Assembly: GCF_003334315.1 (NCBI RefSeq)
Contig: NZ_QOWR01000034.1
Source: Escherichia coli
GTDB lineage: Bacteria > Pseudomonadota > Gammaproteobacteria > Enterobacterales > Enterobacteriaceae
Strand: one strand, 5' to 3'
Length of the DNA stretch: 49,379 nt
In this document: one piece after another, positions 27,788 to 45,766 of the stretch
Position numbering within the stretch: position 1 is the stretch's first letter
How the letters are laid out: each line of letters starts with the position of its first letter
Notes under the pieces: model-generated
What the model was told of the DNA's origin: nothing
The model's input: only the letters and a program-made list of their open reading frames with translations
Database searches by the model: none
Translations under genes and position numbers: made by a program

Positions 27788-28078
27788 ATGGCGGTTGAAG
27801 TTAAATACGTAGTCATTCGTGAGGGCGAAGAGAAAATGTCGTTTACCAGCAAAAAGGAAGCCGATGCTTATGATAAAATGCTTGATACGGCGGATCTGCT
27901 TGACACCTGGCTGACAAATTCTCCAGTGCAAATGGAAGACGAGCAACGTGAAGCCCTTTCGCTATGGCTGGCAGAACAAAAAGATGTGCTGAGCACCATT
28001 CTGAAAACCGGCAAATTACCGTCCCCACAGGTCGTCGGTGCTGAATCCGAAGAGGAAGATGCCTCACACGCGGCCTGA
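27788..28078 (+). CDS. yebG: SOS-inducible protein YebG
   Basis: 96-aa ORF directly downstream of a strong LexA box; acidic C-terminus. Confidence 0.9.
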   Translation: MAVEVKYVVIREGEEKMSFTSKKEADAYDKMLDTADLLDTWLTNSPVQMEDEQREALSLWLAEQKDVLSTILKTGKLPSPQVVGAESEEEDASHAA

Positions 28079-28096
28079 AGCAACTTGCGCTCCTGA

Positions 28097-28501
<405 letters not shown>

Positions 28502-28527
28502 TGGCTTCTGATAATTCGATTGACCGT

Positions 28528-28612
28528 TGGCGGATGCGGCGCGAGTGCCTTGTCCGCCCCAGAACGCACCACAATCGTAGGCCTGAGAAGACGCAACAGC
28601 GTCGCATCGGGC
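28528..28612. repeat. Degenerate REP pair (BIME-like) in the yebF-yebE intergenic region
   Basis: GGCGGATGCGGCGCGAGTGCCTTGTCCGCC and GCCTGAGAAGACGCAACAGCGTCGCATCGGGC are both REP-like palindromes. Confidence 0.6.
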
Positions 28613-28827
28613 AATCAGCATCAAACAATGCCACTCAAAACGACAAACTACTTTCACCTAAAATACCCTTATCACCTGATATACAGTAAATACCTTACCT
28701 GGCGCGAATTTCTTTGAATAACGGCCTACCGCCCCGCTTATTTGCGCATCTTTTGTCTCGATATACATTTTCTGACATCCTCATCCGCTATGCTACAGGC
28801 ACTAAAAATGGTTATTGAGGAGCAAAT

Positions 28828-29487
28828 ATGGCTAACTGGTTAAATCAGCTGCAATCCCTGCTTGGGCAAAGCAGTTCTTCTACCTCCTCGTCTGCGGATC
28901 AGGGATTGGGCAAACTGTTAGTGCCAGGCGCATTAGGCGGACTGGCTGGGCTGCTGGTCGCAAATAAATCAGCACGTAAACTTCTTACGAAATATGGCAC
29001 CAACGCGTTACTGGTTGGCGGCGGAGCGGTAGCGGGTACGGTGCTGTGGAATAAATACAAAGATAAAATTCGCGCGGCGCATCAGGACGAACCGCAGTTT
29101 GGCGCGCAAAGTACGCCGCTGGATGAGCGTACAGAACGTTTGATCCTTGCGCTGGTCTTTGCCGCTAAAAGTGATGGTCATATTGATGCCAAAGAACGTG
29201 CGGCAATCGACCAGCAATTGCGTGAAGCCGGCGTGGAAGAGCAGGGGCGTGTACTCATTGAGCAGGCAATCGAACAACCGCTGGATCCACAACGCCTGGC
29301 TACCGGGGTCCGCAATGAAGAAGAGGCGCTGGAAATCTATTTCCTGAGTTGCGCGGCTATTGATATTGACCATTTTATGGAACGCAGTTACCTGAATGCA
29401 CTGGGTGACGCGCTGAAAATCCCCCAGGATGTTCGTGACGGCATTGAACGCGATCTCGAACAGCAAAAACGCACTTTGGCGGAATAA
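28828..29487 (+). CDS. yebE: Inner-membrane protein YebE (DUF533, TerB-like C-terminal domain)
   Basis: 219-aa ORF with a Ser-rich N-terminus, one hydrophobic segment and a charged C-terminal domain. Confidence 0.85.
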
Positions 29488-29668
29488 TTCCGCTCTCTGG
29501 ATAGCCTGAAGTTGACTATTTCGGGCTATCCAGAATCGCACAGCCATTTGAACAGGCTGATTTTCTCTGTCTGCATAACATTCGATATCCGCGCCATTAC
29601 CTGTCATCATCTAAGCAATGACTCCCCTGTTTCGCTTGCATCCCCGGTGAGTTTTGCCACCCTTATAA

Positions 29669-32415
<2,747 letters not shown>

Positions 32416-32438
32416 GGCATGCTCCAGGCCGAAAAAGC

Positions 32439-33095
32439 CTAGCGTAATGGAATGATATCGCCTTGCCAACCCTGTGATGAACGCTGACCGACTAACAATA
32501 ATGAACCATGATCGGCGCGAACGATGAGACGACCATATTCATCCCATAGTGCACTGTTACCACGGGCATTTGCCATCAGCACAGCAATCGAGTACTGATG
32601 TGAAAAAAATTGTAAGCGACGGGCCGACGCCAGCAGGTCGGGTTCTCCCAGACATTGCCCTGTCGTAAACAGTGAACAGGTCGGGTCCATATCCATACCT
32701 TGCGGTTGTTCATCGACCACCGTGATGGTTCTGGAACGACGGCCCAGACATGCACCATGACTCTGATGGTAGATCCCAGGCGTTTTTCGCCACGGTGCGA
32801 ACACCGCAATTCCACGAATAAAGCGATCGTTATATTCAACGGGAAGGCCGGCAATGATGGTCATTCGCCAGGTCGTTGCGGCATAACAAAGCGGGTCTAA
32901 CAGTGAGAGATCGGGTGGGGCAGGAAGGGCACGTCGCGAATAATCACACCCCAGTAAAGAAAGCGATGGAAAAACTAACAGCTGACATTGTTGCCTGGCG
33001 GCGGCCCTCACAAACTCCAGATGATGAGCTACCTGTTCGGTGAGTGAGGTTTTACGAGGCTCATATTGCGCTGCTGCAACTTTCCAGAACGACAT
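32439..33095 (-). CDS. yobB: Carbon-nitrogen hydrolase (nitrilase superfamily) protein YobB, function unknown
   Basis: 218-aa ORF, 23 nt upstream of exoX on the same strand; nitrilase-like LLVFPSLSLLGCDY segment. Confidence 0.8.
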   Translation of the reverse strand: MSFWKVAAAQYEPRKTSLTEQVAHHLEFVRAAARQQCQLLVFPSLSLLGCDYSRRALPAPPDLSLLDPLCYAATTWRMTIIAGLPVEYNDRFIRGIAVFAPWRKTPGIYHQSHGACLGRRSRTITVVDEQPQGMDMDPTCSLFTTGQCLGEPDLLASARRLQFFSHQYSIAVLMANARGNSALWDEYGRLIVRADHGSLLLVGQRSSQGWQGDIIPLR

Positions 33096-33196
33096 AATGA
33101 CTTCCTTTTCAAAATGACTGCAAATTATGGGTGCGGTTTAGAAAATACTCATAATTTAGCAGGCGTTATGTAAGAAAGTGTAACCCTGTATAAGTT

Positions 33197-33427
33197 TTAT
33201 TTAAGTTTGGGCTCGTAAGGTAAACGTGACAGATTGACCGAAGCCAAACGGTGGGCAATAAGCCGCTCGCGAAACCAGCTGCGCAAATGTTCAGGCTGTT
33301 CACGTTCAACCGCTTCAGCGATCACCGGCATATTGTAGCGTTCTTTAAATGCCACCCCGGCCGCCGCCAAATCGACATTCACTTTATCCATTTCTGTTTG
33401 ATCCAGTTTAGCCAGATTCTTCAGCAT
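33197..33427 (-). CDS. holE: DNA polymerase III theta subunit
   Basis: Start trimmed to ATG 33427 ([27 protein letters not shown]...), 76 aa; GGAG-containing SD upstream. Confidence 0.9.
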
Positions 33428-33565
33428 TCTTAATCTCCTCATCATTCGCGGGCAAAAGTTACTAAGAGTGAGCCAGGATGGCAAGCCGGAATTGATGATC
33501 CTCGACTCAGACATTAGACAAGGTTATGCTCTGTAAAAAAGTTATTACAAAAAGGAATAGATAAT

Positions 33566-33940
33566 ATGGCTTCAACTGCACGCTCCCTTCGCTACGCGCT
33601 GGCAATCCTGACCACTTCGTTGGTGACACCTTCCGTCTGGGCACATGCGCATTTAACGCATCAGTATCCTGCGGCAAACGCGCAAGTGACAGCTGCACCG
33701 CAGGCAATCACTTTAAACTTCTCGGAAGGTGTGGAAACAGGATTCAGTGGTGCAAAAATCACGGGGCCAAAAAACGAAAATATTAAAACATTACCGGCGA
33801 AGCGAAATGAGCAGGACCAAAAGCAACTGATTGTTCCACTGGCCGATTCGCTGAAACCCGGAACCTACACCGTTGACTGGCATGTTGTTTCGGTGGACGG
33901 GCATAAAACGAAAGGACACTACACCTTTAGCGTGAAATAA
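33566..33940 (+). CDS. yobA: Periplasmic copper-binding protein, CopC family (YobA)
   Basis: 124 aa; signal peptide ending AWA, with predicted mature N-terminus HAHLTHQYPA, consistent with a CopC Cu(II) site using the N-terminal His. Confidence 0.85.
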   Translation: MASTARSLRYALAILTTSLVTPSVWAHAHLTHQYPAANAQVTAAPQAITLNFSEGVETGFSGAKITGPKNENIKTLPAKRNEQDQKQLIVPLADSLKPGTYTVDWHVVSVDGHKTKGHYTFSVK

Positions 33941-33943
33941 ATC

Positions 33944-34816
33944 ATGCTGGCGTTTACCTGGATCGCGCTGCGATTTATCCATTTCACCTCGCTGATGCTG
34001 GTTTTTGGCTTCGCAATGTACGGTGCCTGGCTGGCCCCCTTAACGATTCGTCGCTTGCTGGCGAAGCGTTTTCTGCGTTTACAACAGCACGCTGCCGTCT
34101 GGAGTTTGATCAGTGCCACTGCAATGCTCGCCGTTCAGGGCGGGTTGATGGGAACGGGATGGACAGATGTATTTTCGCCAAACATTTGGCAGGCTGTTTT
34201 GCAAACGCAGTTTGGTGGCGTCTGGTTATGGCAAATTGTTCTCGCCCTCGTAACGTTGATCGTCGCCCTTATGCAACCGCGGAATATGCCACGTTTGCTG
34301 TTTATGCTCACTACCGCGCAATTTATTCTGCTGGCGGGAGTGGGGCATGCGACGCTGAATGAAGGGGTAACGGCGAAAATCCATCAGACTAATCACGCGA
34401 TTCACCTGATTTGTGCGGCGGCGTGGTTTGGGGGATTACTGCCGGTGCTCTGGTGTATGCAACTCATCAAAGGCCGTTGGCGACACCAGGCTATTCAGGC
34501 GCTGATGCGTTTTTCCTGGTGCGGGCATTTTGCGGTGATCGGCGTACTGGCAAGCGGCGTGCTTAATGCATTGTTGATTACCGGATTTCCCCCCACACTT
34601 ACGACTTACTGGGGCCAACTCTTATTGCTCAAAGCTATCCTGGTGATGATTATGGTGGTCATCGCGCTGGCTAATCGTTATGTTCTTGTACCGCGCATGA
34701 GGCAGGATGAAGATCGTGCGGCACCCTGGTTTGTGTGGATGGCTAAACTCGAATGGGCGATAGGTGCGGTAGTGCTGGTGATCATCAGCCTGCTTGCGAC
34801 TCTCGAACCTTTTTGA
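33944..34816 (+). CDS. yebZ: CopD-family inner-membrane protein (YebZ)
   Basis: 290-aa polytopic membrane protein starting 4 nt after the copC-like stop. Confidence 0.85.
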   Translation: MLAFTWIALRFIHFTSLMLVFGFAMYGAWLAPLTIRRLLAKRFLRLQQHAAVWSLISATAMLAVQGGLMGTGWTDVFSPNIWQAVLQTQFGGVWLWQIVLALVTLIVALMQPRNMPRLLFMLTTAQFILLAGVGHATLNEGVTAKIHQTNHAIHLICAAAWFGGLLPVLWCMQLIKGRWRHQAIQALMRFSWCGHFAVIGVLASGVLNALLITGFPPTLTTYWGQLLLLKAILVMIMVVIALANRYVLVPRMRQDEDRAAPWFVWMAKLEWAIGAVVLVIISLLATLEPF

Positions 34817-34828
34817 TGGATTACGAAA

Positions 34829-35170
34829 ATGATGAAAAAAAGTATTCTGGCGTTTCTGTTACTCACCAGTTCTGCAGCGGCGCTGGCGGCACCGCAGGTG
34901 ATTACCGTCAGCCGTTTTGAAGTGGGTAAAGACAAATGGGCGTTTAATCGCGAAGAGGTGATGCTGACTTGCCGACCGGGTAATGCTTTGTATGTCATCA
35001 ACCCAAGTACCCTCGTGCAGTATCCTTTAAACGATATCGCACAAAAGGAAGTTGCCAGTGGGAAGACTAAAGCCCAACCCATTTCGGTGATTCAGATTGA
35101 TGATCCTAACAATCCCGGCGAAAAAATGAGTCTGGCACCGTTTATAGAACGAGCTGAAAAACTCTGTTAA
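34829..35170 (+). CDS. yebY: DUF2511 periplasmic protein YebY
   Basis: 113-aa ORF with signal peptide, third gene of the yobA-yebZ-yebY unit; terminator follows. Confidence 0.8.
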
Positions 35171-35198
35171 TTACCTAAAATAGCCTTTTGATTTCCAA

Positions 35199-35241
35199 TA
35201 AAAAAACCGCCTCAGTTCTTTCACCAGAACGGGCGGTTTTT
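35199..35241. terminator. Bidirectional terminator after yebY (and probable RyeA 3' end)
   Basis: AAAAAAACCGCCTCAGTTCT...AGAACGGGCGGTTTTT, a GC stem flanked by A-run and T-run. Confidence 0.75.
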
Positions 35242-35328
35242 AACATTTAAGCTGATGACCACCGCGCTTTTTATTGACCATTTTGCACGCAAACTGGAAA
35301 ACCTGGCGTCGTCATCTATTCTTAAAGG

Positions 35329-35431
35329 GCAAGGCAACTAAGCCTGCATTAATGCCAACTTTTAGCGCACGGCTCTCTCCCAAGAGCCATTTCCCTGGAC
35401 CGAATACAGGAATCGTGTTCGGTCTCTTTTT
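35329..35431 (+). ncRNA. sdsR: Small regulatory RNA SdsR (RyeB), sigma-S dependent
   Basis: Recalled SdsR sequence matches (GCAAGGCAACTAAGCCTGCATTAATGCC...CGGTCTCTTTTT). A sigma-S-type -10 (TCTATTCTT, 35315-35323) sits upstream and a GC stem plus U-run ends at about 35431. Confidence 0.75.
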
Positions 35432-35564
35432 ATCTGTTAAAAGCCAGAAGCATTTCCTTCGCTGACTTTATAGTCAACCATAACACACACTCTACTGTCT
35501 GAGTCCAGCGTTTTTTAACATTCTTGTTAAGATTATGTGATCTTTAGCGCGGAGGAAAATATTG

Positions 35565-36221
35565 ATGAAACAGCCTGCGCCCGTTTATCAGAGAATTGCG
35601 GGTCATCAATGGCGACATATCTGGCTTTCTGGCGATATACACGGTTGTCTTGAGCAGTTGCGCCGCAAATTATGGCATTGTCGTTTTGATCCGTGGCGAG
35701 ATTTACTTATCTCAGTGGGAGACGTTATCGATCGTGGGCCGCAAAGTTTACGTTGTCTGCAGTTACTGGAACAACATTGGGTTCGTGCGGTAAGAGGCAA
35801 TCATGAACAGATGGCGATGGATGCGCTGGCATCCCAGCAGATGTCTTTGTGGTTGATGAATGGCGGCGACTGGTTTATTGCGCTGGCAGATAATCAACAG
35901 AAACAAGCGAAAACGGCGCTGGAAAAATGTCAGCATTTGCCCTTTATTCTTGAAGTACACAGCCGCACCGGCAAACATGTTATTGCTCATGCCGATTATC
36001 CAGATGATGTTTATGAATGGCAAAAGGACGTTGATTTGCATCAGGTCTTGTGGAGCCGCTCACGATTAGGTGAACGCCCAAAAGGGCAGGGAATTACAGG
36101 TGCTGATCATTTCTGGTTTGGTCATACACCGTTGCGACATCGCGTGGATATTGGCAACCTGCATTATATTGATACCGGTGCTGTCTTTGGGGGCGAACTG
36201 ACTCTTGTGCAATTGCAATAA
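35565..36221 (+). CDS. pphA: Serine/threonine protein phosphatase 1 (lambda-phosphatase-like PPP family)
   Basis: 218 aa from the second ATG; PPP motifs GDIHG, GDVIDRG, GNHE. Confidence 0.9.
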   Translation: MKQPAPVYQRIAGHQWRHIWLSGDIHGCLEQLRRKLWHCRFDPWRDLLISVGDVIDRGPQSLRCLQLLEQHWVRAVRGNHEQMAMDALASQQMSLWLMNGGDWFIALADNQQKQAKTALEKCQHLPFILEVHSRTGKHVIAHADYPDDVYEWQKDVDLHQVLWSRSRLGERPKGQGITGADHFWFGHTPLRHRVDIGNLHYIDTGAVFGGELTLVQLQ

Positions 36222-36413
36222 TTAAAAATCACCGTACTCCTGCGCAGGTCGCCAGAAACCATCTATAAAATCCTCAATCGGAAAACAACCGCCCTGGCGG
36301 ATCCGTTGATCGCTCATAGAATGAAGACACTGCTGTTCCGTGTTGTAGACATCCACAACAATATCTTCACAACCGCCATCCAGGTAGCAAACAAAAAGTA
36401 CCAGCGCGAACAT
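36222..36413 (-). CDS. yebW: Small protein YebW (63 aa), unknown function
   Basis: Start trimmed to ATG 36413 (MFALVLFVCYLDGGCEDIVV...); Cys-rich; the track extends it by 28 codons. Confidence 0.65.
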   Translation of the reverse strand: MFALVLFVCYLDGGCEDIVVDVYNTEQQCLHSMSDQRIRQGGCFPIEDFIDGFWRPAQEYGDF

Positions 36414-36517
36414 TTCATCCCCGAAGTGTGGTGCCGTACCGTTAAGTTTAGGAGAGATTTTACAACGGGGGAATAACCAGGACAAATAACCCGCCATGCC
36501 GACGGGTTCTTTTTGGA

Positions 36518-36754
36518 TCAGGCAAGACGCATAATCCAGGCATCAGATTGTTGATCGTAACGGGTACGGTAAAGGATAGAGTGTTCGCCATTTAGCAGGG
36601 CAGGGATACTGGTTTCAGCATCCCAGGCATCCAGTTGCATACATAAATCGGGGTCAGATTTACAAGGAATGGTTAACGTTCGATCACCCGGCGATTCACC
36701 GTGTAATTCGCCGTCGTCGATTTCAAAAGCGCCTATGCGCACACTGGTTTTCAT
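36518..36754 (-). CDS. yebV: Small protein YebV (78 aa), unknown function
   Basis: Start trimmed to ATG 36754 (MKTSVRIGAFEIDD...); lies between rsmF and yebW on the same strand. Confidence 0.7.
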   Translation of the reverse strand: MKTSVRIGAFEIDDGELHGESPGDRTLTIPCKSDPDLCMQLDAWDAETSIPALLNGEHSILYRTRYDQQSDAWIMRLA

Positions 36755-36871
36755 CTTCGTGCTCTCCATTTAGCTGCCGATTGTGGTACGACCAGTCCGA
36801 TCGCACCATTTTTCAGCCTAGTTGAGGCCGCCGAATGTGCCAGTCAAAAAGTGCGCTTTTTTTGTGCGCTG

Positions 36872-38317
36872 TCATGCGTTACTGGTAAAAAGTTTCCCGT
36901 CCCGCACCAGTTCACGCGGGTAGCTGTTTTTCAGTCGCGAACCAATCCGTTTGGCTAAACCAATCGGCTGATGCTGGAAAGTAACCAACACGTCATCCGC
37001 CACTGGCGCGGCTTGCGGGTAAACATCGCGCCCGCGATACCACTCCTCCGCTTCCTGCGGTGTCAGTTCAAAAGCGTTCACATTGTCGGGGGTGGCAAGG
37101 GCAATAACTGCTTCATGCTGCCAGCGATAACCTTTGTTGTGCGTTTCGGCAAGTTTAATCCCCAAGCGAGAAAATCGGACTTTACCGATCAGGGCTTCAA
37201 TGCCCACCGGGAACAACCACAGTTCTTTGTCACGCTGCCAGAGGTGCAGGTTTTCATCCCAGTTTAAGCCAACACCTGCAGCCGCCTGACGAATTTGTCC
37301 AGCTTCGCGATCTTTCACCGGGCTGAACGGAAAATTACCGACTTTGTATTTGGGGGCGGGTAAGGCGGGAATGGCCTGAGTTTTACGCAGACGAGCAACG
37401 AAGAAGCCTTCGCAGTCGTAAATTTGTGGGAAAACATGCAAAAAGCCTTCCTCGGTCAGCGCTTTGTTTGCACCAGGGAAGAGATCGCCAAGTGGTAAAA
37501 ACTCTACTGCGTCAGGGTAAGTCTCTTTCAGCCACAGGCAAACGACTTCGTTTTCTTCCCTGTTTAAGGTACAGGTCGAGTAAACCAGCGTACCACCAGG
37601 ACGTAATGCATGAAAGGCGCTGTCGATAAGCTCCCGTTGGGTAGCTGCGATTTCCTGATTGCTTTCTGGTGACCAGTTTTTTAGCGCATCGGGATCTTTA
37701 CGCACCACGCCTTCGCCGGAGCAGGGAGCGTCCAGCAAAATGGCATCGAACATTTCTGGCACTGCCGCACCAAACACGCGGCCATCAAAATGTGTGAGCG
37801 CAACATTACTGATGCCACAGCGGCTGATATTGGCATGTAACACTTTTACCCGACTGGCGGAAAACTCATTGGCAAGGATTACCCCTTCGTTATTCATCCG
37901 TGCGGCAATTTGCGTCGTTTTGGAGCCTGGCGCAGCAGCGACATCCATCACCCGCTGTGGTGCATTACCGTCAGCAAACAAGGCGGCGACGGGCAACATT
38001 GAACTGGCTTCCTGAATATAAAACAGGCCGCTTAAATGCTCGGCGGTACTACCCAATGGCAATGCATCTTCATTGTCGCGTTCAATCCAGAAACCTTCTT
38101 CACACCACGGAATTGGCGTAAGCGTCCAGCCATAAGGAGCGGTTAATTGCAGGAAATCAGCAACGGAGATTTTCAGCGTATTAACGCGAATGCTGCGGCG
38201 CAACGGGCGCTGACAGGCGGCAAGAAAATCATCAAAAGAGAGCGTCGAAGGCATCGCTTCGCGCATTTGCGTCAGAAAGGCGTCCGGGAAATAAACGGTG
38301 TGTTGGGCCACGAGCAT
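36872..38317 (-). CDS. rsmF: 16S rRNA m5C1407 methyltransferase
   Basis: 481-aa ORF from ATG 38317; NOL1/NOP2/Sun-type SAM MTase motifs ([23 protein letters not shown]). The reference annotation may use the GTG two codons downstream (479 aa). Confidence 0.9.
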
Positions 38318-38390
38318 ATACCACTGGCAAAAAAACAGGCGCGCAGTTTAGCATAAACGCTCCGGCGCAGGCACGCCGGAGCAGTGGGCA

Positions 38391-41024
38391 TTATTTGGGA
38401 AGCGCAGTACCCCATTCACGCCACTCTTTCGGTTCACTTTCCTGCAACAGGAAGTGCTTGCCTTCCTGGGCTTTCGGTGCCAGTGGCGTCCCCGGAGGCG
38501 TGGCGAAGGCGATGCCGCCACGGATAAACTGGTTAAAGGTGCCGGTTTTCACTACGCCGCCCGTCAGACCAAAGTCCAGACTGTAACCCGATGCCAACCA
38601 GAAGACGGAATTGTTACGCACCAGGTGTTGATAGCGTTTACTGATGCGCATCGCAATCATCACGCGATCTGACAATGTCCCCAGCGTCATTCCGGTAACC
38701 GTACCTACTTCCAGACCACGGAACAGCACAGGCGTACCGATGCCTAACGAACCGGCTTCCGGCGCTTCAACAATAATGCTTAAGCCATCCAGGTAACGCG
38801 AATCAGTAATGGTGGCCTCTTGTAATTCAAAGTCGCGGCGAGGATTGCCCCGGCCTGGTTCGACGTTGATATACGGCTGGAGGATAGTATCAAGATGCTC
38901 AACGCCAGCTGCCGAAATTTGCGGTGTGACCACTGAGAAGCGCGTACCACCGCGAGCAAAGGTCTGGACATATTCCGGATAGAGCACCGCCTTTGCCTGT
39001 ACTTCATTGCGCGCGGTAATCAGATCCAGCGTCTGGATTTGTCCGATATCAATACCGAGATAGCGAATTGGCATCCCGACCGCCAGTTTTCCGGCATCGA
39101 AAGCGTGAAGCGTAATCTGCCCACCAACCGCACGGGCCGCTGTTTCGGAAGCATACAGAATACGTTTGTCGCCTTTACGCTGACTGGCGCTGGCACCACT
39201 GAGGTTATCGAAGCTAATAGCCCCTTTTAATGCTCTGGAGAGCGGGGATGCCTGTACGGTCAGGCCACTACCATTCAGCTGAACTTTCGCCCCGCCTTCT
39301 GCCCAGAACACGCTATTGCTGGTCAGAAGGTTGCGATACTCCGGCTTAATATGCAGATCGATATCAAACGCGTTAGCTCGCGGACGCACGGTAATAACTT
39401 CACCAACTTCAAATTTACGGTAGAGCACTACCGAACCTGCCTGCACATCCGGCAGCGTCTCTGCACTCAAACTCACGGTTGTGGTGGGTAAATCGCTAAG
39501 GCTGTTCTCCAGCGCTTTTTCCAGATTGGCATACAGTGGATAGCTGGCTTTCATCTCGCCTTTATCGCCCGGCAGAATACGTATCCCGCCGTTAATCCAT
39601 TCTGAGGCGCTGGCACCGAGAAACTCAACGCCATCCAGCCCCACCTTCACGTCGACACGGCTGTTGACGACAAATTTGCTATCGCCTTTTACCAGTTCTC
39701 GATGCTGAGGCTCGATGGCGACGGTAAAGGTGACGCCTTTGCTGGTGAGTTTACGATCGATAACCTGGCCTACCTGCACGCCGTGAAGAATGAGCGGCTG
39801 ACCCGCATCAATACCGTAACTTTCCGGCGCGGTCAGGGTCAGCGTCAGAACATCAGGTTCATGCAGCAGTGCTTTTTCGCCTGGCACAACAACGAACTCT
39901 TTGCGTGGCTCGCCATCGCCGGGTACCAACTCGAAGGTTTTGCCAGTCAGCAGGGCGCTGAGATTGGCATCGCTAAGGGATAATTTCGGATTACGTAATT
40001 CGATGCGGGTATTTTCACGAAGCAGGGTAACGACGCTGGGATCAACTGTCATTTCCCCAGTGACTTTACCACCAGGATTTAAATCCAGTTTAGTTAGCTG
40101 TCCGACTTCCAGTCCCTGATACATTAATGGCGTCGAGTCGGCGGTTAATCCTGCCCCACTCGGCAGTTCCAGTTTTATTATTACGCCACGCTGGCTGTGG
40201 GCCAGATCTTCATACAGACCAAAGGTATCTTCCGCCTCGGCAGGTTTCGACTCTTCAGGTGAATCGAAGGCAATCGCACCGTTAACCAGTGCCGCCAGAC
40301 TTTCCAGTTTCACCTTCGCGCCACTGATACTGACATTGGCATCAACGCCGGAAACGTTCCAGAAACGGCTACCTTTTTTCACCAGATCGGTAAAACGCCG
40401 CTCGATCAGGACATCAATCACCACGCCTTGCTTGTTGGGATTGATGGCATAGTCGTAGACTTTTCCCACAGGGATCTTGCGGAAATAGACCAATGAACCG
40501 CTGTTCAGCGAACCGAGATCGGGGGCTTGCAGGTGGATCATCAGATCGCCATTGTCCAGTCGATATTTCGGTTGGGTATCGAGTGCGACAAAGTGATCCT
40601 GCTCTTTACCTTTACCTGGCATCATGCCGATATAGTTACCACCGACGAGGGCGTCCAGCCCGGAGACACCTGCCAACGATGCTTTTGGCGTCACCAGCCA
40701 GAACTGAGTCTCTTCGCGCAGCGCATCTTTCATATCGGACTTGATGCTGACCTTGACTTCAATCTTACGAAGATCGTCGCTGAGGCTGATATCCTGCACT
40801 GTTCCGACTTCAACGCCCTGATAACGAACAGGCGTACGGCCCGGGACAATACCATCCGCCGACATAAAGTCGATGGTGACGGTATTACCCCGGTCCTGAT
40901 AACTGTCCCAAATCAGCCAACCGGCAATCATTAGCGCGATGAACGGCAGCAGCCAGAAAGGTGAGATACGGCGTTTATTTTTAATCTGCGCTTCAGTCGT
41001 CGAAGCGGGCGTTTCCTGACTCAT
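38391..41024 (-). CDS. letB: Lipophilic envelope-spanning tunnel protein LetB (YebT), multi-MCE-domain
   Basis: Start trimmed to ATG 41024 ([13 protein letters not shown]..., N-terminal TM helix), 877 aa; long repetitive MCE-like architecture. Its 5' end overlaps the letA 3' end by 32 nt. Confidence 0.9.
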
Positions 41025-42276
41025 GTGCATCCCAAAGTAAGCGGCTGTCCAGCCATTCCACAGCAAGAATAGTCAAAATTACCGCTGCGCCGAAATAAAA
41101 CGCAGCCGGTCCCATAGTAAAAGCGAGGATCTGATCGCGATTAATCAGCGACATGGTTAAAGATATGACAAACAGGTCGAGCATCGACCAGCGACCAATC
41201 CAGGTCACCATCCGCAGTAACAGAATGCGTGTGCGTAAACCTTGCTGGCATTTAAAATGAATACTCAACAGTAAAGTGAACATGACGATCACTTTAGTAA
41301 ACGGTACCAGAATACTGGCGATAAACACGATTCCCGCAACCGCAATGTTGCTACTTGCCAGCGACATAATTCCGGAAAGAATTGTATCTTCCTGCCGTCC
41401 TCCGTTCAGATAAATGATAGAAATAGGCAACAGGTTGGCAGGTAACAACAAAACGATTGACGCTAACAGCGCCGCCCAGCATTTTTGCAAACTATGACGG
41501 CGACGCAGGCGTAGCGGGATATGGCAACGCGGGCAGCGACCACGCTGATCAGGATAGCCGGTAAAATGGCACCCAAGACAGACACGAAGTTTCTCGTCCC
41601 TACGCGTAGCGGGGCGCTGCGGATAAAATCGCTCCCACAGCTCCTCGACATTAAGATGTGACAACGTCACCGTCGTTAAAATCACCAACGCCACAAAAGA
41701 GAACAAGCCGACACCCGCCTGGATATGGGCATAATCCTGTACCTTTATAGAAGCAACGCCAATGCCGACCAGGTAGATATCCAGCATTACCCACTCTTTA
41801 AGTCGCTCAAGCATCAGCAGTACCGGACGTAAATTCATTCCCAGTCGGTTACCAAACCATAAATATGCTATGGAGGACACCAGAATGAGGGGGGCACCAA
41901 TAACGCAGAAAAAGACCATCGCCCCCGTTATCGTATCGCCCTGTTTGGTCATTTGCCAGATGCCTTGCATGACGTTGGCGTCGATACGAATACCTAACAG
42001 CCAGATATGCAACAGCGGTTCGCCCCAGGCAAACGGCATCAGCAACAGCATGGTGAAAGCCATTGCCGCCAGGCGCGTTAGCGACCAGTCGCGCCCGTCG
42101 CGAATTTTTGCCTGACAGCGCGGACAATAGGCACTCTGATGAGAATTTATCTCGGGCAGGCTAAACAGCATGTCGCATTGCGGGCAACGTTGGTAATCAC
42201 CACGCGGCAGTTCCTCGCCGATTGACCTCACTGTTATCTTTTTTGTCGGCGTAATTTGTGGTGTGTTAAGAGCCAT
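40993..42276 (-). CDS. letA: PqiA-family inner-membrane protein LetA (YebS)
   Basis: 427 aa; two duplicated modules each with a CxxC zinc-ribbon-like pair (CPQC...CPRC and CLGC...CPRC) followed by TM helices. Confidence 0.9.
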
Positions 42277-42405
42277 GACGTGCCAAATGTAATAAGAATT
42301 AACATTAATATTAACCCATGATGGGAATGATCTTGAGCATTAACGCATTTAATGCTTATTTTAATAGGCTGGCAGTTCCAGGTAAGACAACCAAGTGATT
42401 ATATA

Positions 42406-42903
42406 ATGAACAAAACAGAATTTTACGCGGATTTAAATCGCGACTTTAACGCGCTGATGGCAGGAGAAACCAGTTTTCTGGCAACGCTTGCGAACACCAG
42501 TGCGTTGTTATACGAGCGTCTCACTGACGTAAACTGGGCAGGTTTTTATTTGCTTGAGGACGATACACTGGTACTCGGACCATTTCAGGGCAAAATTGCC
42601 TGTGTCCGGATACCCGTCGGGCGCGGGGTGTGCGGCACTGCGGTTGCCCGCAATCAAGTGCAGCGTATCGAGGATGTTCACGCGTTTGACGGGCATATTG
42701 CCTGTGATGCGGCGAGTAATTCTGAAATTGTTCTGCCGCTGGTGGTGAAAAATCAGATTATTGGTGTTCTCGACATCGATAGTACCGTCTTCGGTCGCTT
42801 TACAGACGAGGACGAGCAAGGCTTACGTCAGCTTGTGGCACAGCTTGAAAAAGTGCTTGCAACGACGGATTACAAAAAATTCTTTGCGAGCGTCGCAGGA
42901 TAA
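42406..42903 (+). CDS. msrC: Free methionine-(R)-sulfoxide reductase (GAF domain)
   Basis: Start trimmed to ATG 42406 (MNKTEFYADLN...), 165 aa; active-site region CVRIPVGRGVCGTA. Confidence 0.85.
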   Translation: MNKTEFYADLNRDFNALMAGETSFLATLANTSALLYERLTDVNWAGFYLLEDDTLVLGPFQGKIACVRIPVGRGVCGTAVARNQVQRIEDVHAFDGHIACDAASNSEIVLPLVVKNQIIGVLDIDSTVFGRFTDEDEQGLRQLVAQLEKVLATTDYKKFFASVAG

Positions 42904-42999
42904 TCAACGGATAACGTAGCATTTACTGGTAGCGTCATTATAATGACGCCTGTTCATGCCTGCGCTTGTTGGCTACGTCCGTTGTAATCAGGAAATTTC

Positions 43000-43698
43000 A
43001 TGGAAAATCAACCTAAGTTGAATAGCAGTAAAGAAGTAATCGCGTTTCTGGCCGAACGTTTTCCCCACTGTTTCAGTGCGGAAGGTGAAGCGCGTCCGCT
43101 GAAAATCGGTATTTTTCAGGATTTGGTCGATCGTGTTGCCGGGGAAATGAACCTGAGCAAAACGCAATTACGATCCGCTTTACGTCTCTACACTTCGAGC
43201 TGGCGTTATCTTTACGGTGTTAAACCCGGCGCAACGCGTGTCGATCTTGACGGCAACCCATGCGGTGAGCTTGACGAGCAACATGTAGAGCATGCTCGCA
43301 AGCAGCTTGAAGAAGCGAAAGCGCGTGTTCAGGCACAGCGTGCTGAACAGCAAGCGAAAAAACGCGAAGCTGCCGCAGCTGCTGGTGAGAAAGAAGACGC
43401 ACCGCGCCGCGAACGCAAGCCACGTCCGACCACGCCACGCCGCAAAGAAGGCGCTGAACGTAAACCTCGTGCGCAAAAGCCGGTAGAGAAAGCGCCAAAA
43501 ACAGTAAAAGCACCTCGCGAAGAACAGCACACCCCGGTTTCTGACATTTCAGCTCTGACTGTCGGACAAGCTCTGAAGGTGAAAGCGGGTCAAAACGCGA
43601 TGGATGCCACCGTATTAGAAATCACCAAAGACGGCGTCCGCGTCCAGCTGAATTCGGGTATGTCTTTGATTGTGCGCGCAGAACACCTGGTGTTCTGA
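43000..43698 (+). CDS. proQ: RNA chaperone ProQ (FinO-like N-domain, Lys/Arg-rich linker, Hfq-like C-domain)
   Basis: 232-aa ORF with the characteristic basic low-complexity linker ([34 protein letters not shown]). Confidence 0.95.
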
Positions 43699-43717
43699 AA
43701 CGGAGGCCGGGCCAGGC

Positions 43718-45766
43718 ATGAACATGTTTTTTAGGCTTACCGCGTTAGCTGGCCTGCTTGCAATAGCAGGCCAGACCTTCGCTGTAGAAGATATCACGCG
43801 TGCTGATCAAATTCCGGTATTAAAGGAAGAGACGCAGCATGCGACGGTAAGTGAGCGCGTAACGTCGCGCTTCACCCGTTCTCATTATCGCCAGTTCGAC
43901 CTCGATCAGGCATTTTCGGCCAAAATCTTTGACCGCTACCTGAATCTGCTCGATTACAGCCACAACGTGCTGCTGGCAAGCGATGTTGAACAGTTCGCGA
44001 AAAAGAAAACCGAGTTAGGCGATGAACTGCGTTCAGGCAAACTCGACGTTTTCTACGATCTCTACAATCTGGCGCAAAAGCGCCGTTTTGAGCGTTACCA
44101 GTACGCTTTGTCGGTACTGGAAAAGCCGATGGATTTCACCGGCAACGACACTTATAACCTTGACCGCAGCAAAGCGCCCTGGCCGAAAAACGAGGCTGAG
44201 TTGAACGCGCTGTGGGACAGTAAAGTCAAATTCGACGAGTTAAGCCTGAAGCTGGCAGGAAAAACGGATAAAGAAATTCGTGAAACCCTGACACGCCGCT
44301 ACAAATTTGCCATTCGTCGTCTGGCGCAAACCAACAGCGAAGATGTTTTCTCGCTGGCAATGACGGCGTTTGCGCGTGAAATCGACCCGCATACCAACTA
44401 TCTTTCCCCGCGTAATACCGAACAGTTCAACACTGAAATGAGTTTGTCGCTGGAAGGTATTGGCGCAGTGCTGCAAATGGATGATGACTACACCGTTATC
44501 AATTCGATGGTGGCAGGTGGTCCGGCAGCGAAGAGTAAAGCTATCAGCGTTGGTGACAAAATTGTCGGTGTTGGTCAAACAGGCAAGCCGATGGTTGACG
44601 TGATTGGCTGGCGTCTTGATGATGTGGTTGCCTTAATTAAAGGGCCGAAGGGCAGTAAAGTTCGTCTGGAAATTTTACCTGCTGGTAAAGGGACCAAGAC
44701 CCGCACTGTAACATTGACCCGTGAACGTATTCGTCTCGAAGACCGCGCGGTTAAAATGTCGGTGAAGACCGTCGGTAAAGAGAAAGTCGGCGTGCTGGAT
44801 ATTCCGGGCTTCTATGTGGGTTTGACAGACGATGTCAAAGTTCAACTGCAGAAACTGGAAAAACAGAATGTCAGCAGTGTGATCATCGACCTGCGTAGCA
44901 ATGGCGGTGGGGCGTTGACCGAAGCGGTATCGCTCTCAGGTCTGTTTATTCCTGCGGGTCCCATTGTTCAGGTCCGCGATAACAACGGCAAGGTTCGTGA
45001 AGACAGCGATACCGACGGGCAGGTGTTCTATAAAGGCCCGCTGGTGGTACTGGTTGACCGTTTCAGTGCTTCGGCTTCAGAAATCTTTGCCGCGGCAATG
45101 CAGGATTACGGTCGTGCGCTGGTTGTGGGTGAACCGACGTTTGGTAAAGGCACCGTTCAGCAATACCGTTCATTGAACCGTATTTACGATCAGATGTTAC
45201 GTCCTGAATGGCCAGCGCTGGGTTCTGTGCAGTACACGATCCAGAAATTCTATCGCGTTAACGGCGGCAGTACGCAACGTAAAGGCGTAACGCCAGACAT
45301 CATCATGCCGACGGGTAATGAAGAAACGGAAACGGGTGAGAAATTCGAAGATAACGCGCTGCCGTGGGATAGCATCGATGCCGCGACTTATGTGAAATCA
45401 GGAGATTTAACTGCCTTTGAACCGGAGCTGCTGAAGGAACATAATGCGCGTATCGCGAAAGATCCTGAGTTCCAGAACATCATGAAGGATATCGCGCGCT
45501 TCAACGCTATGAAGGACAAGCGCAATATCGTTTCTCTGAACTACGCTGTGCGTGAGAAAGAGAATAATGAAGATGATGCGACGCGTCTGGCGCGTTTGAA
45601 CGAACGCTTTAAACGCGAAGGTAAACCGGAGTTGAAGAAGCTGGATGATCTACCGAAAGATTACCAGGAGCCGGATCCTTATCTGGATGAGACGGTGAAT
45701 ATCGCACTCGATCTGGCGAAGCTTGAAAAAGCCAGACCCGCGGAACAACCCGCTCCCGTCAAGTAA
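43718..45766 (+). CDS. prc: Tail-specific periplasmic protease Prc (Tsp), S41 family with PDZ domain
   Basis: Start trimmed to ATG 43718 (MNMFFRLTALAGLLAIAGQTFA signal peptide), 682 aa; begins 19 nt after proQ. Confidence 0.95.
   Translation: MNMFFRLTALAGLLAIAGQTFAVEDITRADQIPVLKEETQHATVSERVTSRFTRSHYRQFDLDQAFSAKIFDRYLNLLDYSHNVLLASDVEQFAKKKTELGDELRSGKLDVFYDLYNLAQKRRFERYQYALSVLEKPMDFTGNDTYNLDRSKAPWPKNEAELNALWDSKVKFDELSLKLAGKTDKEIRETLTRRYKFAIRRLAQTNSEDVFSLAMTAFAREIDPHTNYLSPRNTEQFNTEMSLSLEGIGAVLQMDDDYTVINSMVAGGPAAKSKAISVGDKIVGVGQTGKPMVDVIGWRLDDVVALIKGPKGSKVRLEILPAGKGTKTRTVTLTRERIRLEDRAVKMSVKTVGKEKVGVLDIPGFYVGLTDDVKVQLQKLEKQNVSSVIIDLRSNGGGALTEAVSLSGLFIPAGPIVQVRDNNGKVREDSDTDGQVFYKGPLVVLVDRFSASASEIFAAAMQDYGRALVVGEPTFGKGTVQQYRSLNRIYDQMLRPEWPALGSVQYTIQKFYRVNGGSTQRKGVTPDIIMPTGNEETETGEKFEDNALPWDSIDAATYVKSGDLTAFEPELLKEHNARIAKDPEFQNIMKDIARFNAMKDKRNIVSLNYAVREKENNEDDATRLARLNERFKREGKPELKKLDDLPKDYQEPDPYLDETVNIALDLAKLEKARPAEQPAPVK

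What the first reader, a model, noticed from the sequence alone, without database searches (positions are those of the whole stretch)
35565..36769. Lambda-type phosphatase PphA beside two tiny unassigned ORFs (yebW, yebV)
pphA encodes a PPP-family phosphatase of the phage-lambda type. It is followed, on the opposite strand, by two very small proteins of unknown function: a 63-aa Cys-rich one and a 78-aa acidic one, co-directional with rsmF. I see no integrase or att-like repeats, so this is not a recognisable prophage remnant, but the trio is among the least characterised parts of the window.
Basis: partly seen in the sequence, partly recalled or inferred. Interest (0 to 1): 0.3.

Follow-up and report, generated by a model that had tools for sequence, protein, structure and literature searches.

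The report
Known E. coli genes pphA, yebW, yebV
This stretch holds three already annotated, strongly conserved E. coli core genes: a lambda-type phosphatase, a small relative of a phage lysis protein, and a small beta-barrel stress protein; they are real genes but not a prophage remnant or a single functional unit, so the finding is largely ordinary.

Summary
pphA lies at 35565-36221 (+), yebW at 36222-36413 (-) and yebV at 36518-36754 (-). The finding's end, 36769, is an upstream in-frame ATG, not the likely start.

All 5426 complete E. coli genomes carry the stretch. The order letB-rsmF-yebV-yebW> <pphA holds in 80 Enterobacteriaceae species. Both small ORFs are real genes. Their dN/dS is about 0.06, like housekeeping neighbours, and they give full-length Pfam matches. 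YebV has a solved homologue (8VVA) and has been detected by mass spectrometry.

The "no prophage" reading is only partly right. There is no integrase, att repeat or tRNA. But PphA is about 50% identical to lambda NinI, and YebW is about 40% identical to YdfD, the lambdoid-phage lysis protein reported to inhibit IspG. Both look like old, separately fixed phage-derived genes.

The three genes are separate transcription units:
- pphA is transcribed by read-through from the sigma-S sdsR promoter.
- yebV is sigma-S dependent and carries an invariant FadR-operator core.
- yebW has its own conserved sigma-S-type -10 box.

The stop codons of yebW and pphA touch in most genera, so their transcripts must overlap. 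The function of YebW (non-lytic IspG binder?) is inference only.

The parts
35332..35431 (+). sdsR (RyeB) small RNA. Its sigma-S promoter drives pphA by read-through of the sdsR terminator.
   Evidence: Rfam RF00111, 114 bits. Terminator-like hairpin at 35397-35425. Read-through transcription into pphA is shown in PMC6610125.
35291..35435 (-). sraC/ryeA antisense small RNA (core matched by Rfam). Its transcription interferes with sdsR-pphA transcription.
   Evidence: Rfam RF00101, 175 bits; PMC6610125.
35565..36221 (+). pphA (prpA): lambda-phosphatase-like PPP-family metallophosphatase, 218 aa, with motifs GDIHG, GDVIDRG and GNHE intact.
   Evidence: The chromosomal clade is separate from six phage NinI proteins, 100/100 bootstrap.
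36219..36224 (.). Tail-to-tail junction TAA|TTA: the stop codons of pphA and yebW abut with no spacer, so no terminator can lie between the genes.
   Evidence: Sequence. The gap is 0 nt in 44 of 68 species, -4 in 7 and 2-5 in 10.
36222..36413 (-). yebW: 63-aa DUF1482 protein, chromosomal paralogue of the phage lysis protein YdfD. Four cysteines (C9, C15, C29, C43); predicted beta-beta-alpha-beta fold with a disordered acidic tail.
   Evidence: dN/dS 0.06.
36418..36422 (-). yebW Shine-Dalgarno GGGGA (TGAGGA in most genera), 4 nt before the ATG.
   Evidence: Conserved block in alignment A3.
36442..36452 (-). Conserved sigma-S-type extended -10 box for yebW. It reads CCTAAACTTAA in E. coli and CCTACACTTAA in most genera.
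   Evidence: Phylogenetic footprint in 22 genera: T and A invariant, four more positions at least 90% conserved, within an otherwise variable spacer. The match to the sigma-S consensus is from my own knowledge; no transcription start site data were seen.
36488..36508 (.). Conserved GC-rich hairpin right after the yebV stop. It is the terminator of yebV. On the + strand it is followed by CTTTTTGG, making it the only terminator-like site downstream of pphA.
   Evidence: 100% paired in 22 genera, with compensatory changes at 2 pairs. Stable on both strands; U-rich antisense tail in 10 of 22 genera. + strand scan.
36518..36754 (-). yebV: 78-aa DUF1480 protein, a split beta-barrel (PilZ-like fold without the c-di-GMP motifs), sigma-S dependent.
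   Evidence: 8VVA and the literature. dN/dS 0.06.
36784..36797 (-). Invariant 14-mer ACTGGTCGTACCAC in the yebV leader. The 12-nt core CTGGTCGTACCA equals the core of the fadBA FadR operator, so this is a candidate FadR operator.
   Evidence: Invariant in 22 genera. Single match in the window, 0.21 expected. The identical string is in the fadBA operator oligonucleotide (PMC4259882). yebV is listed as a predicted FadR target in the supplement of PMC5343134.
36815..36821 (-). Conserved sigma-S-like -10 box for yebV. It reads CTAGGCT here and CTACGCT in most genera.
   Evidence: Alignment A4. RpoS dependence is reported in PMC2907692 and PMC5437024. The promoter assignment itself is inferred.

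Best explanation
The stretch holds three separately transcribed, vertically inherited core genes of Enterobacteriaceae. They share stationary-phase (sigma-S) control but do not form one machine.

**1. pphA.** It encodes an intact lambda-phosphatase-like metallophosphatase. It was acquired once, long ago, from the nin-region phosphatase lineage of lambdoid phages. It now evolves fast and is often lost. It is expressed by read-through from the sigma-S sdsR promoter.

**2. yebW.**
- It encodes a 63-aa cytoplasmic protein with a beta-beta-alpha-beta fold and four cysteines.
- It is the chromosomal sister of the phage protein YdfD. It keeps the N-terminal half, which in YdfD binds IspG, but has a different conserved tail.
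- I infer that it still binds a host protein, most likely IspG, and dampens it rather than blocking it. That would fit two published results: overexpression is tolerated, and it mildly raises MICs, including for gentamicin.
- It has its own conserved sigma-S-type promoter.

**3. yebV.** It encodes a small acidic split-barrel protein. It is made in stationary phase and is probably also repressed by FadR.

**Overlap of yebW and pphA.** The two genes end stop-to-stop, so their mRNAs must overlap. In E. coli the pphA transcript probably runs antisense across all of yebW, ending at the hairpin at 36488-36508. This would allow mutual interference.

**Shown here:** gene reality, homologies, synteny, selection, and the conserved non-coding elements.
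**Inferred:** the YebW target, the antisense coupling, and FadR control.
For: **Reality and conservation.** Median dN/dS is 0.061 for YebW and 0.058 for YebV, against 0.064 for RsmF and 0.057 for LetB.

**Phage ancestry.**
- PphA against lambda phosphatase and NinI.
- The chromosomal PphA clade is monophyletic, 100/100 bootstrap.
- YebW against YdfD.

**Separate units.**
- A conserved terminator hairpin with covariation lies between yebV and yebW.
- Footprinted -10 and Shine-Dalgarno elements precede yebW.
- Insertions lie between yebV and yebW in three Citrobacter species.
- pphA is lost or a pseudogene in several species.
- yebW occurs without its partners.

**Sigma-S link.** PMC6610125 for pphA; PMC5437024 and PMC2907692 for yebV.

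**FadR.**

**Overlapping transcripts.** The spacer is 0 nt in 44 of 68 species. The only terminator-like site downstream of pphA is at 36485-36509. PMC6610125 reports that RNA declines along the pphA ORF.

**YebW is non-lytic.** It was selected on a multicopy plasmid, doubles the MICs of ceftriaxone, gentamicin and levofloxacin, and its knockout is viable.

**YdfD.** Its N-terminal residues 1-28 bind IspG, and an intact C-terminus is needed for lysis.

**Fold.**
Against: - There is no direct evidence that YebW protein is made. No proteomic or tagged-allele report turned up in the literature searches.
- There is no evidence that YebW binds IspG.
- YebW and YdfD differ most in the tail that YdfD needs for its activity, so the target could differ altogether.
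- The sigma-S assignment for yebW rests only on a conserved -10-like box; no transcription start site or rpoS data were seen.
- The U-rich tail on the antisense side of the hairpin is present in only 10 of 22 genera. Antisense coupling, if real, is therefore not universal, and Rho-dependent termination could end both transcripts earlier.
- The structural similarity of YebV to PilZ lacks the ligand-binding motifs.
Confidence: 0.6

Rival explanations
1. The trio is the decayed remnant of one lambdoid prophage that integrated here and lost its integrase, att sites and structural genes.
For: - Two of the three genes have lambdoid-phage relatives.
- GC content is slightly lower, 0.47-0.48 against 0.51-0.55 in the neighbours.
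Against: - The stretch is fixed in 5426 of 5426 E. coli genomes and is syntenic across 80 Enterobacteriaceae species.
- There is no integrase, tRNA or att-like repeat.
- In phages ydfD lies in the early-left operon and ninI in the early-right operon, and they are transcribed divergently and far apart. Here the two genes are convergent and touching.
- yebW sits beside rsmF in taxa that lack pphA, which suggests two separate acquisitions.
- Chromosomal PphA proteins form their own clade.
- YebV has no phage relative at all.
Confidence: 0.08
2. The genes form one functional module. One version is a toxin-antitoxin-like pair, with YebV neutralising the YdfD-like YebW. Another is a phosphatase-substrate pair, PphA with YebW, kept together by selection.
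For: - yebV-yebW adjacency, with a 93-129 nt spacer, holds in about 74 of 77 species, and the yebW-pphA junction is tight.
- YdfD is toxic.
- yebW stays joined to pphA even where yebV is separated from it.
Against: - A conserved terminator and a separate promoter-like box lie between yebV and yebW.
- yebW overexpression alone is not toxic, and its deletion has no phenotype.
- Each gene occurs without the others in some genomes.
- PphA evolves three times faster than YebW, which is not what tightly co-adapted partners usually show.
- There are no PADLOC defence-family matches.
Confidence: 0.1
3. YebW is an exported small disulfide protein. Its hydrophobic N-terminus would be a signal peptide and the four cysteines would form two disulfides in the periplasm, so it would be unrelated in action to cytoplasmic IspG.
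For: - Several database entries call orthologues "secreted protein".
- The N-terminus MFALVLFVCYL is hydrophobic.
- The cysteines are conserved.
Against: - There is no basic n-region, the hydrophobic run is only about 10 residues, and there is no lipobox or AxA cleavage motif (sequence).
- The structure model places residues 2-9 as the central strand of a sheet, with pLDDT about 88.
- The homologous segment of YdfD binds cytoplasmic IspG as a soluble GST fusion.
Confidence: 0.1

Closest known systems
Bacteriophage lambda Ser/Thr/Tyr phosphatase (NinI, ORF221; PDB 1G5B) and E. coli PrpA/PphA
   Same: The window protein is PphA itself: NCBIfam equivalog NF008516, 442 bits. It aligns over its full length with lambda phosphatase (E 1.6e-62, about 50% identity), with all metallophosphatase motifs kept.
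   Different: It is chromosomal, not in a nin region. It forms a clade apart from the phage proteins. It is transcribed from the sdsR promoter. It is convergent with and abuts yebW.
YdfD of the Qin prophage and lambdoid phages (lysis protein, reported IspG inhibitor; Pfam DUF1482, PHROG 1092)
   Same: Same Pfam family and same length (63 aa). 40% identity, with the N-terminal half best conserved. The two cysteines conserved in YdfD are invariant here too.
   Different: - YebW is a vertically inherited chromosomal gene beside rsmF, not part of a dicB-ydfD phage operon.
- It has two extra conserved cysteines.
- It has a clade-specific tail, FIDGFWRPAxxYSDF, in place of the YdfD tail that lysis requires.
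- Overexpression is tolerated and raises MICs instead of lysing cells.
KPN_02352 / DUF1480 (PDB 8VVA), with the PilZ domain as nearest characterised fold
   Same: YebV is 87% identical to the crystallised protein over residues 2-78. It therefore shares the six-stranded split barrel capped by one helix, and the CKSDPDLC segment.
   Different: Compared with PilZ, it is shorter and lacks the RxxxR and D/NxSxxG c-di-GMP motifs (my reading of the sequence). Its function is unknown.
FadR-repressed, sigma-S-influenced stationary-phase genes (fad regulon operators, e.g. fadBA)
   Same: The yebV leader carries CTGGTCGTACCA, the same 12 nt as the core of the fadBA operator. It lies just downstream of a -10-like box. 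A published comparative-genomics table lists yebV as a FadR target.
   Different: YebV has no recognisable role in fatty-acid breakdown. Binding and regulation have not been tested. The 2022 review of the FadR regulon does not list yebV.

Membership tests
PPP-family / lambda-phosphatase-like metallophosphatase (PphA) | Signature motifs GDxHG, GDxxDRG and GNH[E/D], plus the downstream His residues | tested here: met
   GDIHG, GDVIDRG, GNHE, AHADYP and GHTP are present in the translated ORF and align to 1G5B.
PPP-family / lambda-phosphatase-like metallophosphatase (PphA) | Score above the curated cut-off of the PphA equivalog model | tested here: met
   NF008516: 442.1 bits against a cut-off of 326. 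The sister model NF007425 (PphB type) scores 220.6, below its cut-off of 332.
PPP-family / lambda-phosphatase-like metallophosphatase (PphA) | Mn2+-dependent phosphoprotein phosphatase activity | not testable with these tools
   Reported for PrpA in the literature cited by PMC6610125; not measured here.
DUF1482 / YdfD-YebW family | Full-length match to Pfam PF07358 | tested here: met
   E 7.8e-36, residues 1-57 of the protein against positions 1-57 of the 57-position model.
DUF1482 / YdfD-YebW family | Significant pairwise similarity to phage YdfD, and conservation of its two cysteines | tested here: met
   BLASTP E 1e-12, 40% identity. C29 and C43 are invariant in 28 sequences.
YdfD-type lysis protein (functional class) | YdfD-like C-terminal tail, which is required for lysis | tested here: not met
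   The YebW clade has a different conserved tail. Deleting even one C-terminal residue of YdfD abolishes killing.
YdfD-type lysis protein (functional class) | Lysis on overexpression; binding to IspG | not testable with these tools
   The literature indicates that a multicopy yebW plasmid is tolerated and protective. Binding to IspG has never been tested.
DUF1480 / YebV family | Full-length match to Pfam PF07351 and to the solved member 8VVA | tested here: met
   E 2.2e-42. 8VVA: E 5.7e-43 over residues 2-78.
PilZ c-di-GMP receptors | RxxxR and [D/N]xSxxG binding motifs | tested here: not met
   Neither motif is present in the 78-aa sequence (read). The authors of the 8VVA structure say the same.
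Prophage or prophage remnant | Integrase, att direct repeats, a tRNA or other integration site, and variable presence among strains | tested here: not met
   - The neighbours are yebY, copD, rsmF and letB.
- Only short, imperfect repeats were found.
- No tRNA in 28000-44000.
- Present in all 5426 genomes.
Operon / toxin-antitoxin-like pair (yebV-yebW) | Co-transcription, strict co-occurrence, and a toxic member | tested here: not met
   - A conserved terminator and a separate -10 box lie between the genes.
- Insertions separate them, and each occurs alone in some genomes.
- yebW is not toxic in published work.
FadR regulon | Operator matching the FadR palindrome CTGGT-N3-ACCAG near the promoter | tested here: met
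   The 12-nt core is identical to the fadBA operator and is invariant in 22 genera.
FadR regulon | FadR binding, and derepression by acyl-CoA | not testable with these tools
   There is only a computational prediction in the supplement of PMC5343134.

The most novel reading that the evidence does not exclude
YebW is a domesticated copy of a phage lysis protein that Enterobacteriaceae use in stationary phase. It would throttle IspG, and so isoprenoid and quinone supply, or alternatively shield IspG from incoming phage YdfD. Its expression would be coupled to the phosphatase PphA through fully overlapping convergent transcripts.
Probability: 0.12. Interest if true: 0.55.

Novelty: already known. 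Interest (0 to 1): 0.22.

Why it matters
As it stands, this is a correct but ordinary annotation of three known genes.

The modest added value is that it sharpens testable questions about two widespread orphan proteins:
- YebW is the host-fixed sister of a phage lysis protein. This gives a concrete candidate target (IspG) and a possible explanation for the published twofold rise in aminoglycoside, beta-lactam and quinolone MICs.
- YebV carries both sigma-S and FadR signatures, which points to a role at the junction of starvation and lipid status.
- The stop-to-stop junction of pphA and yebW is a clean natural case for studying interference between convergent genes.

None of this overturns current understanding.

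Tried and rejected
- **Phage relatives of YebV.** The PHROG scan and a tblastn search of 50,697 phage records at E up to 1 both found nothing.
- **Defence systems.** The PADLOC scan of all three proteins found nothing.
- **Fold relatives of YebW.**
  - Foldseek against AFDB50 returned only DUF1482 proteins.
  - PDB sequence search gave one chance hit.
- **Large-library search with YebW.** Three long hits (P0247, P0258, P0260) are repetitive proteins and were judged spurious.
- **Literature search by b-numbers** (b1836, b1837) returned unrelated papers.
- **The one E. coli genome with a truncated match (H12).** It shows an unannotated 7-kb gap and was uninformative.
- **Longer ORF versions** (91-aa YebW starting at 36497, 83-aa YebV starting at 36769) were rejected.
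  - The 36497 ATG lies inside the conserved terminator hairpin.
  - Neither extension is conserved.
- **Lipoprotein or signal-peptide reading of YebW** was rejected on sequence grounds and on the structure model.
- **A fused YebW-IspG structure prediction** was considered and dropped. The tool returns no interface measure, and paired alignments were not available.
- **The promoter scan's yebW candidate** (TTGTCC-17-TAAAAT) is not the conserved element. The footprinted box is CCTAAACT, 10 nt further downstream.
Full report
**What is there.**

The window is Escherichia coli chromosome. The 1.9-kb stretch 35100-37000 is found in all 5426 complete E. coli genomes at 95-99.9% identity. RefSeq annotation of a near-identical genome gives the gene order yobA, copD, yebY, pphA, yebW, yebV, rsmF, yebT/letB.

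In window coordinates the genes are:
- pphA: 35565-36221 (+), 218 aa
- yebW: 36222-36413 (-), 63 aa
- yebV: 36518-36754 (-), 78 aa
- rsmF: 36872-38311 (-)

The finding's end coordinate, 36769, is an in-frame ATG 15 nt upstream of the annotated yebV start. That ATG overlaps the Shine-Dalgarno sequence, and the extension is not conserved.

YebW has 4 Cys in 63 residues. YebV has pI 4.47. YebW is in fact the more acidic of the two, with pI 4.05.

Between yebY and pphA lies the known antisense small-RNA pair SdsR/RyeB and SraC/RyeA (Rfam, 114 and 175 bits).

**Are the small ORFs genes?**

Yes. Both give full-length Pfam matches: DUF1482 with E 7.8e-36 and DUF1480 with E 2.2e-42. Orthologues are abundant in Enterobacterales.

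A scan of one genome per species returned 213 YebV-encoding loci, and the 80 best were read. In these loci the order letB-rsmF-yebV-yebW> <pphA is almost invariant.

Pairwise Nei-Gojobori estimates against E. coli, over the same 60 genomes, are as follows:

| Gene | dN/dS | Median dN |
|---|---|---|
| yebW | 0.061 | 0.119 |
| yebV | 0.058 | 0.095 |
| rsmF | 0.064 | 0.147 |
| letB | 0.057 | 0.101 |
| pphA | about 0.135 | 0.363 |

The two small genes are therefore under the same constraint as their housekeeping neighbours.

Published work supports this:
- YebV was detected by LC-MS and is tightly sigma-S controlled in Salmonella (PMC5437024).
- It is 72-fold RpoS dependent in E. coli O157:H7 (PMC2907692).
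- The E. coli and Klebsiella proteins have been purified. The Klebsiella orthologue, 87% identical, was solved at 1.75 A as PDB 8VVA.

I found no protein-level evidence for YebW. What exists is a phenotype. A multicopy yebW plasmid doubles the MICs of ceftriaxone, gentamicin and levofloxacin, and the knockout is viable with no change in susceptibility to those three drugs (PMC5857375 as corrected by PMC9676061).

**Phage ancestry.**

PphA is clearly lambda-type:
- E 1.6e-62 to the lambda phosphatase structure 1G5B, with all catalytic motifs intact.
- PHROG 246, NinI-like.
- 198 phage records hold a relative, at 47-51% identity apart from one mislabelled 1861-bp record described under "Seen in passing". 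In the phage records inspected, the gene sits in the nin region.

It matches PHROG 1092 with E 2e-13. Sixteen genuine phage records hold relatives at 33-41% identity. The pairwise match to YdfD is E 1e-12 at 40% identity.

In phage Tritos the gene follows dicF and dicB and precedes recE in the early-left operon. In a Klebsiella phage it likewise precedes the exonuclease VIII and RecT genes. Some RefSeq records already name the E. coli protein "YdfD/YebW family". YebV has no phage relative.

YdfD of the Qin prophage is a 63-aa lysis protein reported to bind and inhibit IspG. Its N-terminal 28 residues mediate binding, and an intact C-terminus is required for killing (PMC8835842).

**Why this is not a prophage remnant.**

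- There is no integrase, tRNA or att-like repeat.
- GC content is only slightly low, 0.47-0.48.
- The stretch is fixed across the family.
- In phages ydfD and ninI lie in divergent operons. Here the two genes converge and touch.
- Chromosomal PphA proteins from 33 genomes form a clade apart from six phage NinI proteins, with 100/100 neighbour-joining bootstrap. This argues for one old acquisition followed by vertical descent.
- yebW lies beside rsmF in Lonsdalea (no yebV, no pphA) and in "Erwinia sp. HR93" (with yebV, no pphA). It stands alone elsewhere in the genome of Chania. This suggests, on few outgroups, that yebW arrived earlier than pphA.

**Not one unit.**

pphA evolves about three times faster than its neighbours:
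- It is frameshifted in E. albertii, C. koseri, one C. amalonaticus-group genome and Leclercia adecarboxylata.
- It is absent in about seven further species.
- It is interrupted by an IS3-family element in one E. coli strain.

yebW is missing in two species that keep yebV and pphA. In three Citrobacter species 0.4-2.3 kb is inserted between yebV and yebW. In C. youngae the insert is an MFS transporter gene plus a LysR regulator gene. In all three, yebW stays joined to pphA.

**Conserved non-coding anatomy.**

Alignment of the yebV-yebW spacer from 22 genera shows three conserved islands in otherwise free sequence:
1. A GC-rich hairpin right after the yebV stop (window 36488-36508). It is paired in 100% of cells, with compensatory changes at two pairs; no shuffle reached the observed covariation.
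2. A box CCTACACTTAA (CCTAAACTTAA in E. coli, 36442-36452), about 30 nt before the start codon. From memory it fits the sigma-S extended -10 consensus KCTAYRCTTAA.
3. A Shine-Dalgarno TGAGGA.

So yebW very probably has its own promoter. The longer 91-aa ORF is an artefact, because its ATG lies inside the hairpin.

The rsmF-yebV spacer contains a similar CTACGCT box and, 19 nt downstream, an invariant 14-mer ACTGGTC[G/A]TACCA:
- Its 12-nt core occurs once in the window, against 0.21 expected.
- The core is identical to the core of the fadBA FadR operator as printed in a published oligonucleotide (PMC4259882).
- yebV is listed as a predicted FadR target in a supplementary table of a comparative-genomics study (PMC5343134).
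- It is absent from a 2022 review of the regulon.

This link is therefore predicted but untested.

**The tail-to-tail junction.**

The stop codons of yebW and pphA abut (TAA|TTA). The stop-to-stop spacer in the 68 species examined is as follows:

| Spacer | Number of species |
|---|---|
| 0 nt | 44 |
| -4 nt (overlapping stops) | 7 |
| 2-5 nt | 10 |
| 27-32 nt | 3 |
| larger apparent gaps (the four frameshifted pphA genes) | 4 |

No terminator can sit between the genes. On the + strand, the only terminator-like site downstream of pphA is the reverse side of the yebV hairpin, followed by CTTTTTGG (36485-36516). That tail is U-rich in 10 of 22 genera. On the - strand, nothing convincing follows yebW for several hundred bases.

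I therefore infer that pphA mRNA runs antisense across the whole of yebW and its promoter, and that yebW mRNA runs into the 3' half of pphA. This fits a published remark that sdsR-pphA read-through RNA declines steadily along the pphA ORF for unknown reasons (PMC6610125). The inference is not demonstrated.

**YebW protein.**

The family is tiny. Only 51 cluster representatives out of 1.84 billion proteins reach E 1e-3, and three of those are spurious.

An alignment of 28 members shows:
- C29 and C43 are invariant.
- C9 is at least 90% conserved.
- C15 is lost only in the K-12-type YdfD and one Klebsiella-phage form.
- The chromosomal clade has its own conserved tail, FIDGFWRPAxxYSDF.

The AlphaFold model has mean pLDDT 79.5, with about 90 in the core. 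It gives strand 2-9, strand 15-23, helix 26-35, strand 41-45 and a disordered tail. The hydrophobic N-terminus is thus a core strand, not a membrane helix or a signal peptide. No informative fold relatives were found.

**Most likely working.**

- **Shown:** the stretch holds three conserved, separately organised genes. Two are of phage descent. Sigma-S dependence is published for pphA and yebV.
- **Inferred, moderate confidence:** yebW is also a stationary-phase gene, and yebV is FadR-repressed.
- **Inferred, low confidence:**
  - YebW retains the IspG-binding N-terminal half of YdfD but not its lethal tail, and acts as a mild modulator.
  - Lower isoprenoid and quinone supply would reduce membrane potential and growth. 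That would fit the small rise in gentamicin, ceftriaxone and levofloxacin MICs.
  - A decoy role against incoming phage YdfD is an alternative.
  - PphA and YebW expression may be linked through overlapping transcripts.

**Verdict.**

The genes are already annotated and partly studied, so novelty is low. The useful outputs are a corrected picture (two phage-derived genes, not one unit, strong constraint on both small ORFs) and a short list of concrete experiments.

**Seen in passing.**

- The pphA-sdsR spacer varies from about 0.15 to 4.5 kb among genera and is an insertion hot spot. In C. youngae it holds an ORF with an HNH-like motif.
- A 1861-bp GenBank record named "Escherichia phage ECO95 1-6-1" carries the chromosomal convergent yebW-pphA pair at 87% and 64% identity. 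It is probably not phage DNA.
- Several loci and proteins labelled Microbacterium, Chryseobacterium, Listeria or Stenotrophomonas carry enterobacterial yebV or yebW. They look like contamination or mislabelling.

Noticed in passing
window 35291-35435 (both strands): The SdsR/RyeB and SraC/RyeA antisense small-RNA pair lies between yebY and pphA (Rfam, 114 and 175 bits). Published work shows that its sigma-S promoter is the main driver of pphA.
   Followed up: partly
window 36784-36797 (-): An invariant 14-mer, ACTGGTCGTACCAC, lies in the yebV leader. Its 12-nt core is identical to the fadBA FadR operator core and is conserved in 22 genera. yebV appears as a predicted FadR target only in a supplementary table (PMC5343134).
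   Followed up: yes
window 36442-36452 (-) and 36815-36821 (-): Footprinted sigma-S-type -10 boxes lie upstream of yebW (CCTAAACTTAA) and yebV (CTAGGCT). The promoter scan instead picked a non-conserved TAAAAT box for yebW.
   Followed up: partly
window 36842-36850 (-): The block TTTTTGACTGGC, just after the rsmF stop, is also well conserved across genera. It is too far (21 nt) from the -10-like box to be a standard -35 element, and its role is unexplained.
   Followed up: no
loci L008, L014, L020, L026, L028, L042, L058, L059, L061, L065, L068 (between pphA and sdsR): The pphA-sdsR spacer varies from about 0.15 kb to 4.5 kb among genera and is an insertion hot spot. In C. youngae (L026, 9642-10424) it holds a 260-aa ORF with an HNH-like motif.
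   Followed up: partly
loci L017, L026, L028 (between yebV and yebW): Three Citrobacter species have 0.4-2.3 kb inserted between yebV and yebW. In L026 the insert is an MFS transporter gene plus a LysR-type regulator gene. yebW remains stop-to-stop with pphA.
   Followed up: yes
loci L008, L014, L021, L073; hit H1 (NZ_CP019245.1): pphA is frameshifted in E. albertii, C. koseri, a C. amalonaticus-group genome and Leclercia adecarboxylata. It is interrupted by an IS3-family element in one E. coli strain. It is absent in about seven further species that keep yebV and yebW.
   Followed up: partly
GenBank OR845647.1 (hits H13, H30): A 1861-bp record named "Escherichia phage ECO95 1-6-1" carries the chromosomal convergent yebW-pphA pair (87% and 64% identity to the window proteins). 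It looks like bacterial chromosomal DNA filed as phage.
   Followed up: no
L046, L053; proteins P0177, P0108: Enterobacterial yebV and yebW sequences appear in records labelled Microbacterium oleivorans (a 444-bp contig), Chryseobacterium sp., Listeria monocytogenes and Stenotrophomonas maltophilia. This is probably contamination or mislabelling in public assemblies.
   Followed up: no
window 35233-35247 and 35508-35522: A 15-nt direct repeat (GCGGTTTTTAACATT / GCGTTTTTTAACATT, 93% identical) brackets the sdsR/ryeA locus. It may be chance.
   Followed up: no
literature (PMC10925052): An O157:H7 outbreak study names a prophage by its neighbour yebW ("prophage 7 (yebW)"), so some strains have a prophage integrated close to this locus. 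The window itself shows none, and 5424 of 5426 genomes hold at least 80% of the 1.9-kb stretch in one place.
   Followed up: partly
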